From positions 451,762 to 515,761 of the forward strand of contig CAVPBG010000003.1 in assembly GCA_963701825.1 (NCBI GenBank): a stretch of DNA of 64,000 nucleotides, given 5' to 3'. The notes under the pieces were generated by a model, which was not told the DNA's origin, searched no databases, and saw only the letters and a program-made list of their open reading frames with translations. A program made the translations under genes and the position numbers. The DNA comes from an uncultured Actinomycetes bacterium (GTDB taxonomy: Bacteria; Actinomycetota; Acidimicrobiia; IMCC26256; PALSA-610). This document shows, in pieces, positions 59,219 to 63,430 of the stretch. Every line of letters starts with the position of its first letter. Positions within the stretch are counted from its first letter, which is position 1.

Positions 59219-61249
59219 ATGACGGGCGATTCCGATATCACGGCCGCGTTGCCGGACTACGTCGTCGAGCGCGAGCTCGGCCAGGGCGGCATGGGGGTCG
59301 TGTTCCTCGGCCGCCACGCGCGCCTCGGCCGCATGGTCGCGATCAAAGAGCTCCCGCCCGCGTTCTCCGCCGATGCCGACGTGCGCGAACGGTTCTCGAC
59401 GGAAGCGCGCACGCTCGCGTCGCTGTCACACCCGCACATCGTGCCGATCTACGACTACGTCGAGCGCGACGGCCTGTGCCTCATCGTGATGGAGCAGCTC
59501 CCGGGCGGAACCGTTTGGGACCGTTTCACCACGATCGGTCTCACTCCGCCGACCGCGTGCGCGGTCGCGCTCGCGTGTTGCGCGGCCCTGCAGCACGCGC
59601 ACGGCAAAGGCGTTCTCCATCTCGACGTGAAGCCCGACAACCTCATGTTCGCGAGCGACGCCGCGATCAAGGTCACCGACTTCGGGATCTCGCGCGTGTT
59701 GAGCGGTGACCACACGCTCGGCACGCTCGACGGCCAGGTGCTCGGCACGCCCGCGTACATGTCGCCCGAGCAGGCGCGCGGCTCCGAGCTCACGCCCGCC
59801 TCCGACGTGTACAGCGCGGGAATCATGTTGTACGAGCTGCTCTCGGGCCATCTGCCGTGGACGGGCGCCGAGACCGCGACCGACCTCCTGCTGAAGCGCC
59901 TGCGCGAAGATCCGCGCCCGCTCAGCGAGATCGCGCCGCAGATTCCGCACACGCTCGCCGACGTGGTCATGCACGCGATCGAGCGCGAACCCGAGACGCG
60001 CTACCGCACCGCGGAAGAGTTCGGGCTCGCCATCGCCACGGCGTGCGCCGATTCCTGGGGCCCCGACTGGCTCGACCAGTCGGGCGTCGCGATCATCGGC
60101 GCGGAACGTTTGTCGTTGGCGGCCCGCGCCACGCGCGTGCAAGCGGTCCCCGACCGCTGGCTCGGAGGCGACACTCCCCCCGGCGAGGCGGTCCGGACCA
60201 CGGGTAGCGCGCCGCAAACCGTCATGGAAGGTCGCGCCGACGCCGACAGCCGCCAGGCGTCGGAGACAACTACGGCGCGTCCGAGTGGCGATCACGCGAC
60301 CGCCGCGGCGGCCGCCGCGGGCGCGGCGGCCGTTGCGCCGACTCCCCCGCCCGTGGCTCCACCGGCCGTCCCGGTGATGCCGCACTTCGACGTCGTGCGC
60401 GCCGCGGGTGCGGCGCCCCGCATCGACGGCGCGAACCTGAACCAGATCGATCGGGCCGCGTTCGTCGACGTGTCCGAGGTGATCGGCGCCACGCCCGCGG
60501 CATGGTCCGCGCTCGCCGTCGCCGCGGCACTGGTCGTCGCCGCGGTCATCGCCGCAGTCGCGCTGTTCGGCGGCGTGTCGCGCACCGGCACGCTGCGCGC
60601 GGGCGAAGTCCATGTCGGCGGCGTCGACATGGCGGTCGGCACACCCACGCTCGACCTGTCGTCGAACCTGCCGATCGTCGTGAAGAGCAAGCACGCGACC
60701 GCGTTCGCGAACCACGCGTCGCTGAAGGTCTCGATGGTCGGCGTCCCGCTGTCGACCATCAACGCCAAGATCGTGAGCGGGCGCGGCATATTCGACACGA
60801 GCGTCATGCGCCACGTGGCCACCGGCTCGGTGACGGCGCGTATCGAGATGAGCGCGAACAAGAAGCTCCTCTCCTATTCCGAGGGGCCGGCCTCGTTCCA
60901 ACAGCCGTGGTACCTCACGCTCGTCGGCGTGGGCTCGATCCTGGTGATCCTGGCCGGGTTCGCCTACCTCGAGAGCGCGTTACGCCCGCTGCGCAAGGCC
61001 CGCCGGCGCATCAGCTCGTTCATCGGGTGCGGGATCTCGGCCGCGGTGACCGCGGTCGGCATCGCAGGCCTGGTCGCTTCACTGGGCCACGCCCAGTTGA
61101 CTGCGTCGGGCCTGATCGCCATGGCCGTGCTCGCGGCGGGGGCCGGTATCGCGCTGGGCGTCGCGGTCCGGCGCCGGGCGCTGCACAAGGGCGTGAAGCA
61201 GGCCGTGAGCCGCGCCGAATCGGCCCTGGCCCGGGGAACAGCCAAGTGA
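59219..61249 (+). CDS. Hanks-type Ser/Thr protein kinase (non-RD: HLD instead of HRD) with Ala/Pro-rich linker and a TM-ectodomain-3TM C-terminal module, intact
   Basis: LGQGGMGVVFLG (G-loop), VAIKEL (Lys), HGKGVLHLDVKPDNLMF (catalytic loop), VTDFGISR (DFG), GTPAYMSPEQ. TM helices around residues 425-450 and three more near the C-terminus. Confidence 0.9.
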   Translation: MTGDSDITAALPDYVVERELGQGGMGVVFLGRHARLGRMVAIKELPPAFSADADVRERFSTEARTLASLSHPHIVPIYDYVERDGLCLIVMEQLPGGTVWDRFTTIGLTPPTACAVALACCAALQHAHGKGVLHLDVKPDNLMFASDAAIKVTDFGISRVLSGDHTLGTLDGQVLGTPAYMSPEQARGSELTPASDVYSAGIMLYELLSGHLPWTGAETATDLLLKRLREDPRPLSEIAPQIPHTLADVVMHAIEREPETRYRTAEEFGLAIATACADSWGPDWLDQSGVAIIGAERLSLAARATRVQAVPDRWLGGDTPPGEAVRTTGSAPQTVMEGRADADSRQASETTTARPSGDHATAAAAAAGAAAVAPTPPPVAPPAVPVMPHFDVVRAAGAAPRIDGANLNQIDRAAFVDVSEVIGATPAAWSALAVAAALVVAAVIAAVALFGGVSRTGTLRAGEVHVGGVDMAVGTPTLDLSSNLPIVVKSKHATAFANHASLKVSMVGVPLSTINAKIVSGRGIFDTSVMRHVATGSVTARIEMSANKKLLSYSEGPASFQQPWYLTLVGVGSILVILAGFAYLESALRPLRKARRRISSFIGCGISAAVTAVGIAGLVASLGHAQLTASGLIAMAVLAAGAGIALGVAVRRRALHKGVKQAVSRAESALARGTAK

Positions 61250-61299
61250 CTCCACGCGGGACGTCGACTACGATCCGTGGCCAGGACTTGGGGGGCGGG

Positions 61300-62352
61300 A
61301 TGGCACAGCACCGACTTCGTAACCGGGCGACGGTGCTGGGACTCCTCGCGATCGCCGCGGTCGGCGTCTTCGGCATCACGACCGCCGGCGCGAAGACCGC
61401 CACCGACGACAACGCAGGCAGCGCGGCCGGTCCCGCAGCCTTGGTGATCACCGACGCGCGCATCGGTACGCGGCCGTTGTCGAGCGGCACCCGCGCGAAC
61501 CCGATCCCGATCGACCCGCACGTACGCGAGACCCTCGCGATGACGGTGAAGAACATCGGCGCGTCGACGGGCCAGGTGCGTTACCTGCGCCTCACCGGCG
61601 CCCTCATGGGCATCAACTTCGTGCACTACGAGGCGAGCGTCAACACCGATGTCGCGCCCGGCGAAACGAGCACGATCAGCGTTCCCGGTGACTTCTTCGA
61701 CATCGACGGCGTCGCGCGCGGCTACGTGAACGCGCAGATGCAACTCGTCGACCAGCAACGTTCCCCGTTGGCGACGCAACACTTCGTCGCCGACGTGCGG
61801 GGCAAGGTCGTCTCGTCGGTCGGCTTCATGTTCCTGAGCGCGCTCGCGTTCGCGGTCATCTCGATCGTCGACATCATCATCGGGCTCTCCCGGCGGCGCC
61901 TGCCCCGCAACCGGTTCGTCCGGGGCATCCTGTTCGCCCTCGCGACCGCGAGCACCGTTGTGACCATCGTGATCGGCGCGGCGATGTTCCGCGTCGCCCT
62001 GTTCGACGCCAACACGTGGGTACCGGCGGTGCTGATCGCGGCAGCCATCGGTTTCGTGCTCGGCTACCTGTCGCCCGGAAGGGCAGTCCGCACCTCGCGC
62101 GACATTGCCGACGACAAGGTCATCGACCTCGTCGCCGCCGATGCCGTGGCCCGGGCCAGCGGCCAGTTCGACGCCAACGCGACCACCGGCACCGTTCCCG
62201 CCACCCACGAGTCGGGCTCCATGCCGGCCACGCACGAGTCGGGCTCGATGCCGGCCACCCACGAGTCGGGCGACTACAGCGAGGTTGCCGCCAACCTCAA
62301 GGAGAACTCGCCGCCCCAACACCACTCCGGCAGCCACGAACCCCTCGAATAA
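61300..62352 (+). CDS. Membrane protein: N-terminal signal/anchor, ectodomain of about 150 aa, three TM helices, cytoplasmic tail with 3x PATHESGSM repeats
   Basis: MAQHRLRNRATVLGLLAIAAVGVFGITTAGA..., then TMs VGFMFLSALAFAVISIVDIIIGL / ILFALATASTVVTIVIGAAMF / VPAVLIAAAIGFVLGYL. RBS GGGGGGCGGG. The ORF opens earlier (60502), but that part overlaps the kinase out of frame. Confidence 0.7.
   Translation: MAQHRLRNRATVLGLLAIAAVGVFGITTAGAKTATDDNAGSAAGPAALVITDARIGTRPLSSGTRANPIPIDPHVRETLAMTVKNIGASTGQVRYLRLTGALMGINFVHYEASVNTDVAPGETSTISVPGDFFDIDGVARGYVNAQMQLVDQQRSPLATQHFVADVRGKVVSSVGFMFLSALAFAVISIVDIIIGLSRRRLPRNRFVRGILFALATASTVVTIVIGAAMFRVALFDANTWVPAVLIAAAIGFVLGYLSPGRAVRTSRDIADDKVIDLVAADAVARASGQFDANATTGTVPATHESGSMPATHESGSMPATHESGDYSEVAANLKENSPPQHHSGSHEPLE
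62197..62274 (+). repeat. 27-bp tandem coding repeat (about 2.9 units) encoding PATHESGSM
   Basis: cccgccacccacgagtcgggctccatg / ccggccacgcacgagtcgggctcgatg / ccggccacccacgagtcgggcgac. Confidence 0.9.
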
Positions 62353-62354
62353 TG

Positions 62355-62405
62355 CGAACTGTCGTGAGTTGTGGGCGCATCGCGCCCACAACTCACGACA
62401 GTTCG
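62355..62405. repeat. Palindromic REP-like element, copy 3 (24-bp perfect stem, 3-nt loop), at a convergent gene junction; probable bidirectional terminator
   Basis: cgaactgtcgtgagttgtgggcgc-atc-gcgcccacaactcacgacagttcg. It lies 3 nt after the TAA at 62350-62352 and 11 nt before the minus-strand stop at 62416. Confidence 0.8.
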
Positions 62406-62415
62406 GGGGTTGGGG

Positions 62416-63430
62416 TTATTCGCCGGAGAAGTTTTCCCACTCCAGGGGGTAGACCCAGTGCTCGCCGTCGATGCCCTTGAGGAGCACGAGGCGACCCTCG
62501 CCGAAGTCGAGGTCGCCACGCGCGGAGGCGATCTCGTGCACGAGGGATGACACGAGGATCTCGCGGCCCTGGGCGTGGCCGGCGACGCGGGCGGCCATGA
62601 TCACGTGGCGGCCGAAGATGTCGTCGCCGGCCGAGATGACCTCGCCGGTGTGCACACCCACACGGATGCGCACCGAACCGTCTTCGTCCTGCCGTTCGCT
62701 CTCGGCCAGTTCCTTCTGCACCGCGATCATGCAGAGCAGCGCGCGGCGCGCGCCCGGGAACGTCAGCATGAAACCGTCGCCCTGGTTCTTGACCTCGTGG
62801 CCCGACCAGCGCTTCAGGTTGCTGCGCACGATGTTGTTGTGCCGGTTCAGCACCTTCATCCACGCGGTGTCGCCCATCGACGTGGCCTTCTCCGTCGACG
62901 ACTCGATGTCGCTGAACACGATGGTGATCGTGCCTTCGTAGTCGTGTGCGCCGAGCAGGCCCTTCGTGTCGCGCAACGATCGGGCGACGGCGTCGAGCGA
63001 GGTTTCCCGCGCCCTTCGGCCCCGCGCTCGCGGCGCGCATGGGCGCACCGGCGATCATCGTCTCGCGCGACCCGCCGGGCGCGAGCGTGGAACGCGCGGT
63101 GCCCTGGTTCTCGACGAGCTCGAACGTCGTGTCACCGATCCGCACGACGGAACCCGGCTGCAAGAGCATGGGAACGTCGATCTTCTTGCCGTCGATGAAC
63201 GTGCCGTTGGTACTGCGCAGATCTTCGACCATGATGTCGACGCCGCGGACCGTGAGCAGCACATGGCGCCGCGACGTCTGCGAGTCGGCGATCAGCAGAC
63301 CGTCACACTCCCGCCCGATCTCGAGCGGCTCCGTCACCTGGACGCGCAGCGGCTTTCGGTTCAGTTGTTTCACCACGATGACCGGATAATCCACGCCGTC
63401 TTCCCTGGTTGCCCATGCGCCCGGACCCAA
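62416..63430 (-). pseudogene. FHA domain fused to a class III adenylate/guanylate cyclase; one frame change near 63005; start uncertain (TTG 63430 or GTG 63394)
   Basis: FHA: LEIGRECDGLLIADSQTSRRHVLLTVRGVDIMVEDLRSTNGTFIDGKKI (ORF 62393..63430). Cyclase: ITIVFSDIESSTEKA...EVKNQGDGFMLTF...IRVGVHTGEVI...GRHVIMAARVAG (ORF 62416..63048). Confidence 0.8.

What the first reader, a model, noticed from the sequence alone, without database searches (positions are those of the whole stretch)
59219..63430. Ser/Thr kinase, repeat-tailed membrane protein and FHA-adenylate cyclase: a possible phospho-Thr to cAMP relay next to the surface-protein genes
Three adjacent genes: a Hanks-type kinase with a membrane sensor-like C-terminus; a membrane protein 50 nt downstream (probably co-transcribed); and, convergent across a strong hairpin, a protein fusing an FHA domain (a phosphothreonine reader) to a class III cyclase catalytic domain.

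From established domain functions, the simplest reading is that kinase-generated pThr sites recruit or regulate the cyclase. FHA-cyclase fusions are annotated in databases, but I am not aware of a characterised example. The location, directly after two giant surface proteins, suggests envelope or surface-state signalling. The cyclase has one frame break as sequenced.
Basis: partly seen in the sequence, partly recalled or inferred. Interest (0 to 1): 0.6.

Follow-up and report, generated by a model that had tools for sequence, protein, structure and literature searches.

The report
Kinase, membrane partner, FHA-adenylate cyclase module
An uncultured soil actinobacterium (class Acidimicrobiia) keeps a membrane Ser/Thr kinase, a kinase-less look-alike membrane protein and a cAMP-making enzyme fused to a phosphothreonine reader side by side across distant relatives, which suggests an untested route from threonine phosphorylation to cAMP. 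The break in the cyclase gene is most likely an assembly error.

Summary
The stretch holds a Hanks-type kinase (59219-61249, +), a 350-aa membrane protein 50 nt downstream (61300-62352, +), and a convergent FHA + class III cyclase gene (63394-62416, -). A 24-bp-stem palindrome separates the last two.

All three stay together in 7 close relatives. They also stay together, in a different gene order, in a second Acidimicrobiia family. A paralogous FHA-cyclase family sits beside unrelated kinases (kinase-STAND-WD40).

The phosphothreonine-binding residues of the FHA domain and the catalytic residues of the cyclase are invariant in 45 aligned homologues. The cyclase domain resembles the active Mycobacterium avium enzyme Ma1120.

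The frame break is a 2-nt deletion compared with an intact 98%-identical orthologue. In the same assembly the essential genes rpoB and rpoC are also frame-broken, so an assembly error is the likely cause.

The conserved tail repeat of the membrane protein is H-x-S-G, not a threonine. The better docking candidates are RTTG and T-V-(I/V/M) motifs, and an invariant R-E-T-S in the cyclase linker.

The hairpin is one of about 23 copies of a genome-wide repeat.

The mechanism is inferred, not shown. This scan has already noted kinase/FHA-cyclase linkage in many other phyla. This locus is an actinobacterial variant with a new partner-protein family.

The parts
59219..61249 (+). Membrane Hanks-type Ser/Thr kinase, 676 aa. 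Layout: kinase domain (aa 14-263), disordered juxtamembrane linker, TM helix, ectodomain of about 110 aa, three TM helices, basic tail.
   Evidence: Pkinase E 2e-47. The sequence shows GQGGMG, VAIK, HLD (non-RD), KPDN, DFG and SPE. Orthologues with the same layout at 38-96% identity.
60194..60232 (+). Juxtamembrane Thr motifs RTTGS and QTVMEG: candidate autophosphorylation or FHA-docking sites.
   Evidence: 1-5 copies of (E/S/Q)-T-V-(I/V/M)-x-G in the otherwise unconserved linkers of 6 kinases that are linked to an FHA-cyclase. Coordinates. This is inference, not shown.
60497..61246 (+). C-terminal membrane/sensor module of the kinase (TM, ectodomain, TM, Arg-rich loop, TM, TM).
   Evidence: Sequence. 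Profile-profile match to the downstream protein family: 88.6% probability, E 2.6e-6 over 192 columns. The match is not significant when the ectodomain and TM parts are tested separately.
61300..62352 (+). Kinase-less membrane partner, 350 aa. Layout: signal peptide or TM anchor, beta-sandwich ectodomain (aa 48-166), three TM helices (173-257), cytoplasmic helix (266-286), disordered tail.
   Evidence: No Pfam family. 48 close relatives and 378 representative clusters at 50% identity. AlphaFold2 model with mean pLDDT 77.6, above 90 in the ectodomain and TM part. The ectodomain resembles NPC2/RhoGDI-type sandwiches, TM-score about 0.6.
62179..62349 (+). Cytoplasmic tail: ATTGT (RTTG in relatives), then 3 x PATHESGSM/D and a terminal HHSGSHEPLE. 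This is the H-x-S-G repeat array.
   Evidence: Alignment of 29 family members. H, S and G of each repeat are at least 90% conserved and Thr is not. T-G of RTTG is present in about 26 of 29 (my count by eye). Coordinates.
62355..62405 (.). 51-nt perfect palindrome between the two convergent stop codons. It belongs to a dispersed repeat family.
   Evidence: Fold at -57.9 kcal/mol, z -8.7. 22 forward and 23 reverse arm matches in the genome, 0 in the control.
63014..63394 (-). FHA-cyclase gene, 5' part: FHA domain and most of the disordered linker.
   Evidence: PF00498 E 5.6e-13. G27-R28, S41-R42-x-H44 and N63-G64 are invariant in 45 homologues. They align with the same motifs of EmbR, Rv1747 and ArnA.
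63011..63014 (-). Frame break: 2 nt are missing compared with the intact orthologue of G014.
   Evidence: All orthologues are in frame.
62416..63012 (-). FHA-cyclase gene, 3' part: invariant R-E-T-S (63009-62998), helix, class III cyclase domain, stop codon.
   Evidence: PF00211 E 3e-18. Ma1120 E 4.6e-38 by sequence and TM-score 0.9 by fold. Both metal Asp, the Lys/Asp ATP pair and the Arg are invariant.

Best explanation
The three genes form one signalling module of uncultured Acidimicrobiia.

The module has three parts. A receptor-type Hanks kinase and a kinase-less membrane protein of the same architecture (ectodomain plus three-helix bundle) sit in the membrane. The soluble FHA-adenylate cyclase is the output.

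Proposed mechanism, inferred and not shown:
1. A surface or envelope signal activates the kinase.
2. The kinase phosphorylates Thr in cytoplasmic disordered segments. Candidates are its own juxtamembrane RTTG / T-V-(I/V/M)-x-G motifs, the partner's RTTG tail, and the invariant R-E-T-S in the cyclase linker.
3. The FHA domain reads a phosphothreonine. This recruits or rearranges the cyclase so that its obligatory catalytic dimer forms or is blocked, which changes cAMP output.
4. The genome's roughly 10 cNMP-binding proteins read the cAMP.

The direction of control (activation or inhibition) is unknown. The frame break in this copy is most likely an assembly indel, so the gene is probably intact in the organism.
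For: Linkage
- Kinase -> partner -> <- FHA-cyclase is contiguous in all 7 relatives that have the orthologue: G014, G018, G009, G016, G011, G001, and G021 of another genus.
- The same holds in 4 metagenome contigs at 56-73% identity. In all 4 the gene that abuts the cyclase is unannotated, and in the 3 with DNA held it is a member of the partner family, E 1e-73 to 1e-99.
- In another family (G261, G101) the trio is kept in a new order: <-partner | FHA-cyclase-> | <-kinase. In G307 all three lie within 7 kb.
- A paralogous FHA-cyclase clade (46-49% identity) lies next to unrelated Pkinase-nSTAND1-WD40 kinases.

Competence of the parts
- The kinase has all catalytic motifs.
- The FHA G-R / S-R-x-H / N-G residues are invariant.
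- The cyclase has both metal Asp, Lys and Asp for ATP, and Arg. The Asn position is Ile. Active Ma1120 has Ala there, and A164N drastically lowered its adenylate cyclase activity (PMC4215837).

Docking candidates
- R-E-T-S is invariant inside an otherwise variable, disordered linker. T132 lies at the N-cap of the pre-catalytic helix.
- T-V-(I/V/M) motifs occur in kinase linkers. They are enriched in partner-family tails: 22 observed against 8.6 +/- 2.8 in shuffles, with 0 of 500 shuffles reaching 22.

Precedent
- DgcB, an FHA-GGDEF enzyme, is switched on by a phosphorylated Thr of its own tail (PMC6733907).

Frame break as an artefact
- In G000, rpoB is split into 2 frames and rpoC shows 3 frame changes.
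- The window and G014 each carry private frame-breaking indels about every 5 kb.
- The assembly has few contigs yet only 73% completeness.

cAMP readers
- 10 cNMP-binding domains in G000.
Against: - There is no biochemical or expression evidence of any kind.
- The most conserved tail repeat (H-x-S-G) has Ser, not Thr, and FHA domains bind phosphothreonine.
- The T-V-(I/V/M) motif is found in only 14 of 164 partner tails. The window's own partner has only TVP.
- R-E-T-S-like T-S-I-D is also kept in a cyclase paralogue without an FHA domain (L022), so it may be purely structural.
- Two lineages (G046, G051) keep partner + kinase without a cyclase within 9 kb.
- No PP2C phosphatase lies near the locus. 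The nearest on this contig is 675 kb away.
- Homology between the partner and the kinase's membrane module is unproven.
Confidence: 0.55

Rival explanations
1. Self-contained GarA/DgcB-type switch. The kinase phosphorylates only the cyclase, at the invariant linker Thr of R-E-T-S. The cyclase's own FHA domain then binds that site, within one chain or across the dimer. The membrane partner is a co-sensor or regulator of the kinase, not a docking platform.
For: R-E-T-S is invariant in all 45 aligned homologues and conserved in at least 98% of 120, and it lies in a disordered linker. It resembles the ETTS phospho-switch of GarA/OdhI (my own knowledge). DgcB uses a self-derived phosphothreonine (PMC6733907). 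The partner + kinase pair persists without a cyclase in G046 and G051, which fits a role for the partner on the kinase side.
Against: T-S-I-D is also present in a paralogue that lacks FHA (L022). T132 is only about 35 disordered residues from the FHA domain, and no model of the bound state could be made. The partner gene directly abuts the cyclase gene in 3 different gene orders, which suggests a more direct tie between the two.
Confidence: 0.25
2. In this strain the cyclase is a genuine pseudogene. The 2-nt deletion is real and leaves an FHA-only product with a nonsense tail and no cyclase.
For: The break is present in the assembly. It is a 2-nt loss outside a long homopolymer, which is not the classic long-read error type.
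Against: The essential genes rpoB and rpoC are also frame-broken in this assembly. A second break lies 7 kb away in the giant gene. Outside the break the two halves are 98% identical in protein to the intact G014 copy, with no further damage.
Confidence: 0.15
3. The adjacency has no functional meaning. The kinase/partner pair and the FHA-cyclase act in separate pathways, and the FHA domain reads sites made by other kinases.
For: The genes are convergent, so they are not one transcript. G000 has other Ser/Thr kinases and a canonical FhaA/FhaB/PP2C cluster elsewhere.
Against: The trio survives changes of order and orientation between families. A second FHA-cyclase clade independently pairs with a different kinase type.
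Confidence: 0.05

Closest known systems
Bdellovibrio bacteriovorus DgcB (FHA-GGDEF diguanylate cyclase; PDB 6hbz; PMC6733907)
   Same: An FHA domain is fused through a short linker to a nucleotide cyclase that works as a dimer. [quoted passage not shown] DgcB's FHA domain is among the PDB sequence hits.
   Different: The output domain is GGDEF (c-di-GMP), not a class III cyclase. DgcB's ligand is a roughly 30-aa N-terminal tail, which this protein lacks (its FHA domain starts at about residue 5). DgcB's kinase gene is not adjacent, and it has no membrane partner.
Mycobacterium avium Ma1120 (minimal class III adenylate cyclase; PDB 4wp3; PMC4215837)
   Same: The catalytic domain is 37-42% identical over the structural alignment, E 4.6e-38, TM-score about 0.9. 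It has the same K/D substrate pair and Arg, and likewise lacks the canonical transition-state Asn (Ala in Ma1120, Ile or Met here).
   Different: The Ma1120 constructs solved are 171-210 residues, essentially the cyclase domain alone, with no FHA domain. I know of no link between it and a kinase (my own knowledge).
Mycobacterial STPK/FHA-effector pairs: PknF with Rv1747, PknB with FhaA/MviN, PknH with EmbR, PknB/G with GarA (my own knowledge of the literature; the FHA domains of Rv1747, EmbR and GarA are PDB hits)
   Same: A Hanks kinase gene lies next to, or is functionally tied to, an FHA-bearing effector in an actinobacterium. Phosphothreonine in a disordered linker or juxtamembrane segment serves as the dock.
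   Different: The effector here is an adenylate cyclase. An extra kinase-less membrane protein is part of the conserved set. No PP2C phosphatase is in the cluster.
Synechocystis sp. PCC 6803 Cya1 (slr1991), an FHA + class III cyclase (my own recollection; no supporting text was found in the held library)
   Same: The same two-domain architecture and a similar size (about 330 aa). It is a soluble adenylate cyclase.
   Different: It is cyanobacterial. As far as I recall, the role of its FHA domain and any partner kinase are uncharacterised. No sequence comparison was made here.
Kinase/FHA-cyclase clusters already noted by this scan in Burkholderiales, Gammaproteobacteria, Verrucomicrobia, Binatia and others
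   Same: The same design logic: a membrane Ser/Thr kinase kept next to an FHA-fused adenylate cyclase, sometimes beside giant adhesin loci.
   Different: Those clusters usually include a PP2C phosphatase and CHASE2 or other sensors. Here the sensor module and the partner family are lineage-specific and there is no phosphatase.

Membership tests
Hanks-type Ser/Thr protein kinase (PF00069) | Profile match above the curated cut-off | tested here: met
   162.2 bits against a cut-off of 31.7, residues 14-263
Hanks-type Ser/Thr protein kinase (PF00069) | Catalytic motifs: Gly-loop, VAIK Lys, catalytic Asp/Asn loop, DFG, APE-like | tested here: met
   GQGGMG, VAIKE, HLDVKPDN, DFG and SPE are present. 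HRD is HLD, a non-RD variant, in this genus. It is HRD in the f27 orthologues.
FHA domain (PF00498) | Profile match above the cut-off | tested here: met
   49.6 bits against 20.7; 52.9 bits in the genome scan
FHA domain (PF00498) | Phosphothreonine-binding residues: Gly-Arg, Ser-x-x-His, Asn-Gly | tested here: met
   G27, R28, S41, R42, H44, N63 and G64 are invariant in 45 homologues. They align with the GR / SRxH / NG motifs of EmbR and Rv1747.
Class III nucleotidyl cyclase (PF00211), adenylate-specific | Two metal-binding Asp | tested here: met
   FSDIE and GDGFM are invariant
Class III nucleotidyl cyclase (PF00211), adenylate-specific | Lys/Asp substrate-specifying pair (K101/D157 of Ma1120) | tested here: met
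   VKNQGDG and GDDIFG align with K101 and D157 of Ma1120
Class III nucleotidyl cyclase (PF00211), adenylate-specific | Transition-state Asn-Arg pair | tested here: inconclusive
   Arg is invariant. The Asn position is Ile (GRHVIMAAR). Active Ma1120 has Ala there, and A164N drastically lowered its adenylate cyclase activity, so loss of Asn does not argue against activity.
Class III nucleotidyl cyclase (PF00211), adenylate-specific | Uninterrupted reading frame in this genome | tested here: not met
   A 2-nt gap at 63013 compared with G014. It is probably an assembly error. Reads were not available.
DgcB-type self-tail-activated FHA-cyclase | N-terminal tail carrying the phospho-Thr ligand ahead of the FHA domain | tested here: not met
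   The FHA beta-strands start at residue 5, so there is no tail. An invariant Thr lies instead in the inter-domain linker.
T6SS-type threonine phosphorylation pathway (PpkA/PppA/Fha1) | PP2C phosphatase encoded with the kinase and the FHA protein | tested here: not met
   G000 has only two PP2C_2 matches, neither near the locus

The most novel reading that the evidence does not exclude
A three-part receptor that has not been described. A sensor kinase pairs with a kinase-less paralogue. The paralogue's repeat-bearing cytoplasmic tail, once phosphorylated, acts as a multivalent platform that brings two FHA-cyclase monomers together. This would convert the state of neighbouring giant surface-adhesin genes into a cAMP pulse. 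It would be the first phosphothreonine-to-cAMP relay shown in bacteria, and it would assign a function to a family of 378 protein clusters that has no Pfam family.
Probability: 0.2. Interest if true: 0.65.

Novelty: new variant of a known kind. Interest (0 to 1): 0.45.

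Why it matters
How Ser/Thr kinases and cyclic-nucleotide signalling talk to each other in bacteria is largely unknown. FHA-fused adenylate cyclases are annotated by the thousand: at least 1601 relatives of this one alone. I could find no tested mechanism for any of them.

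This locus offers a compact three-gene system with clear, mutable candidate sites: FHA R28, S41 and N63; linker T132; and the RTTG and TV(I/V) motifs. It could be rebuilt in a cya-deficient E. coli strain.

It also defines a membrane-protein family without annotation, and it recurs beside large surface-repeat proteins. That hints at cAMP control linked to the cell surface in a poorly known soil lineage.

The work also gives a practical warning. This assembly carries frequent frame-breaking indels, so apparent pseudogenes in it should not be trusted.

Tried and rejected
- Literature: searches for FHA-cyclase work (Cya1/slr1991, FHA + adenylyl cyclase, class III + FHA) found nothing relevant in the held library. 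Two searches were rejected for syntax.
- Direct BLASTP of the kinase C-terminus against the partner protein gave nothing.
- Profile-profile comparison gave 88.6% probability overall. It fell to 1.7% for the ectodomain alone and 5.9% for the TM part alone.
- A profile search of 1.84 billion proteins listed no kinase-length protein among the best 150. Paralogy between the partner and the kinase's membrane module is therefore left open.
- Longer members of the partner family carry no recognisable extra domains.
- H-x-S-G repeats as the FHA dock: rejected as the main site. Thr is not conserved in them, and only 8 of 135 wider family representatives have them.
- Programmed frameshift: rejected, because all orthologues are in frame.
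- The hairpin as a locus-specific terminator: rejected. The terminator scan found no T-tract there.
- The similarity between 'DAVARS' in the cyclase linker and 'DAVARAS' in the partner helix: judged a chance match in an Ala/Val/Arg-rich proteome (my own estimate, not pursued).

Full report
WHAT IS THERE

The window is a 69% G+C stretch of contig C3 of a five-contig genome that is 73% complete. Its closest public relatives are uncultured Acidimicrobiia genomes assembled from metagenomes (MAGs).

The finding covers three genes.

1. 59219-61249 (+): a 676-aa Hanks-type kinase. Pkinase matches residues 14-263, E 2e-47. It has GQGGMG, VAIK, HLD-VKPDN, DFG and SPE, so it is a non-RD kinase. After the kinase domain come a disordered Thr-rich linker, one TM helix, an ectodomain of about 110 aa, three more TM helices and a basic tail.

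2. 61300-62352 (+), 50 nt downstream: a 350-aa protein with no Pfam family.

3. On the minus strand, an FHA domain (PF00498, E 5.6e-13) and a class III cyclase domain (PF00211, E 3e-18), in two different frames.

A perfect 24-bp-stem palindrome (62355-62405; -57.9 kcal/mol, z -8.7) lies between the convergent stop codons.

THE FRAME BREAK

In six same-genus genomes and one genome of a sister genus, the orthologue is a single open frame of about 326-350 aa. The DNA alignment with G014 places a 2-nt gap in the window at 63013. G014 is 98% identical in protein to both halves of the gene and 92% identical in DNA over 9.7 kb. Its coding strand reads CCGAAGGGTGCGCGGGAAACC, and the window lacks TG.

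The same comparison shows a 1-nt insertion at 56149 in the window. That insertion splits the upstream giant gene. G014 has private frame-breaking indels of its own at 55702 and 60206, the second one inside its kinase.

In G000 the essential gene rpoB is split between two frames. rpoC changes frame three times. Few contigs combined with low completeness is the pattern seen in several relatives as well.

I therefore read the break as an assembly indel, at about 80-85%. A programmed frameshift is excluded because all relatives are in frame.

IS THE LINKAGE CONSERVED?

Yes.

- The arrangement kinase -> partner -> <- FHA-cyclase is contiguous in G014, G018, G009, G016, G011, G001 and G021.
- Four metagenome contigs whose cyclases are 56-73% identical show it too. 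In two of them, four extra genes sit between the kinase and the partner. These include a signal-peptidase-like protein and DUF5305.
- An HMM of the partner family hits the gene that abuts the cyclase in the three contigs with DNA held, E 1e-73 to 1e-99.
- In a sample of 301 genomes of the class, the partner family occurs in 7 genomes of 5 genera. A kinase orthologue is nearby in all 7, and an FHA-cyclase lies within 7 kb in 5 of them.
- In G261 and G101 (another family) the order has changed to <-partner | FHA-cyclase-> | <-kinase, yet the trio is intact.
- G046 and G051 have only partner -> kinase.
- Independently, paralogous FHA-cyclases (46-49% identity) in G007, G013 and G015 lie co-directionally beside giant Pkinase-nSTAND1-WD40 kinases.

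Linkage that survives rearrangement, and that recurs with a different kind of kinase, is good evidence of functional coupling.

ARE THE PARTS COMPETENT?

FHA domain. G27-R28, S41-R42-x-H44 and N63-G64 are invariant in 45 homologues and at least 98% conserved in 120. They align with the GR / SRxH / NG motifs of EmbR, Rv1747 and ArnA.

Cyclase domain. The best solved relative is Ma1120 of M. avium (E 4.6e-38; model TM-score about 0.9). Both metal Asp, the Lys/Asp ATP pair and the Arg are invariant. The canonical Asn is Ile. Active Ma1120 has Ala at that position, and the A164N change drastically lowered its adenylate cyclase activity (PMC4215837).

Readers of cAMP. G000 has 10 cNMP-binding domains. 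It has only four FHA domains. Two of them lie in the usual FhaA/FhaB/PP2C cluster elsewhere, and no PP2C phosphatase lies near this locus.

THE PARTNER PROTEIN

The word-indexed protein search found 48 close relatives, all labelled 'hypothetical'. A profile search found 378 representative clusters.

The AlphaFold2 model has mean pLDDT 77.6. It shows:
- an N-terminal helix (signal peptide or anchor);
- a confident beta-sandwich at residues 48-166;
- three TM helices at 173-257;
- a cytoplasmic helix at 266-286 (VIDLVAAEAVARASG, nearly invariant);
- a disordered tail.

The sandwich resembles NPC2 and RhoGDI lipid-binding sandwiches at TM-score about 0.6 and 10-12% identity. I take this as a generic Ig-like fold with at most a hint of a hydrophobic ligand.

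The architecture equals that of the kinase's C-terminal half. Profile-profile comparison gives 88.6% probability (E 2.6e-6, 192 columns). It is not significant for the ectodomain or the TM parts alone, and no kinase-length protein appears in the top 150 profile hits. Paralogy is plausible but unproven.

WHERE COULD A PHOSPHOTHREONINE BE?

In the family this is an H-x-S-G-x-(H/F/Y) repeat of 3-8 copies. H, S and G are conserved and no Thr is. It is confined to the near relatives: 8 of 135 wider representatives have it. FHA domains need phosphothreonine, so this is not a likely dock. Its function is unexplained; it could bind metal or accept phosphate on Ser.

Better candidates are these.

(a) RTTG. 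It is conserved just before the repeats in about 26 of 29 partners (my count by eye). It is also present as RTTG/PTTG in the kinase juxtamembrane linkers.

(b) (E/S/Q)-T-V-(I/V/M)-x-G. There are 1-5 copies in the otherwise unconserved linkers of the kinases that are linked to an FHA-cyclase. The motif is enriched in partner-family tails: 22 observed against 8.6 +/- 2.8 in shuffles, with 0 of 500 shuffles reaching 22. It occurs in only 14 of 164 tails.

(c) R-E-T-S. It is invariant in the variable, disordered FHA-cyclase linker. T132 lies at the N-cap of the helix that leads into the catalytic domain. A similar T-S-I-D is kept in a paralogue without FHA, so it may be structural.

MECHANISM

The best-supported reading is a kinase -> phosphothreonine -> FHA -> cyclase relay. 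Phosphothreonine binding would control recruitment to the membrane and/or formation of the catalytic dimer. The analogy is DgcB of Bdellovibrio, where a phosphorylated Thr of the enzyme's own tail binds the FHA domain and activates the GGDEF dimer (PMC6733907). A further analogy, from my own knowledge, is the mycobacterial kinase/FHA pairs.

What is shown: gene linkage, domain identity, residue conservation and disorder of the linker. What is inferred: every phosphorylation and binding step, and the sign of regulation.

SURROUNDINGS

The upstream giant surface protein is orthologous only in G014 and G018. However, large surface-repeat genes flank the kinase in several other lineages:
- PKD, Calx-beta, Big_9 and cadherin-like proteins in G016 and G009;
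- SpaA-like giants of at least 1700 aa in G261 and G101;
- a 14,336-aa ORF in one metagenome contig.

This makes a recurrent association with non-orthologous proteins. It gives moderate support to a cell-surface role. No baseline frequency for such genes was computed.

COMPARISON AND NOVELTY

STPK/FHA-effector pairs and one FHA-nucleotide-cyclase (DgcB) are known, and FHA + class III cyclase is a widely annotated architecture. This scan has already noted kinase/FHA-cyclase linkage in at least 122 other genomes of other phyla.

Three things are new here: the actinobacterial version, its lineage-specific sensor module, the conserved kinase-less partner family, and the absence of a phosphatase. 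I rate it a new variant of a known kind, of moderate interest.

Noticed in passing
window 62355-62405; also 1151-1173 and elsewhere in G000: The palindrome belongs to a dispersed family. The 23-nt arm GAACTGTCGTGAGTTGTGGGCGC matches 22 times forward and 23 times reverse (3 mismatches or fewer) on contigs C2-C5, and 0 times in the reversed control. That is roughly 23 hairpins. It is REP-like; its function (terminator or mobile element) is unknown.
   Followed up: partly
window 56149 (giant gene 52130-59069): The two 'giant surface proteins' are one gene. It is split by a single extra base that the 92%-identical G014 sequence lacks. G014 has its own 1-nt loss at window-equivalent position 55702.
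   Followed up: partly
G000:C4:514519-521809: rpoB is split into two frames and rpoC into four pieces (three frame changes) in this assembly. Apparent pseudogenes anywhere in this genome should be treated as possible assembly errors.
   Followed up: yes
L019 (G015), L020 (G007), L021 (G013): Paralogous FHA-adenylate cyclases (46-49% identity) lie directly upstream of giant kinases of about 1270-1490 aa. The two scanned against Pfam (G007, G013) are Pkinase-nSTAND1-WD40. This is a second, cytoplasmic kinase/FHA-cyclase pairing in the same genus.
   Followed up: partly
L028 7928-11294 and L029 7906-11515: In more distant relatives, four extra genes sit between the kinase and the partner protein. 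They include a signal-peptidase (S24/S26)-like protein and DUF5305. This may be a secreted-fibre or surface-assembly set.
   Followed up: no
window 62200-62349: The H-x-S-G-x-(H/F/Y) repeats (3-8 copies, ending in a near-invariant HESGSHEP) in the partner's cytoplasmic tail have no known counterpart. The conserved His and acidic residues suggest metal binding or Ser phosphorylation. This is unexplained.
   Followed up: partly
window 59618-59626: The kinase's catalytic loop reads HLD instead of HRD (non-RD) in this genus and in G021. Orthologues in other families keep HRD.
   Followed up: no
L046 14641-19740, L047 14258-19999, L016 2-3801, L015 91-1146: Large non-orthologous surface-repeat proteins (SpaA-like, PKD, Calx-beta, Big_9, cadherin-like) flank the kinase in several lineages.
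   Followed up: partly
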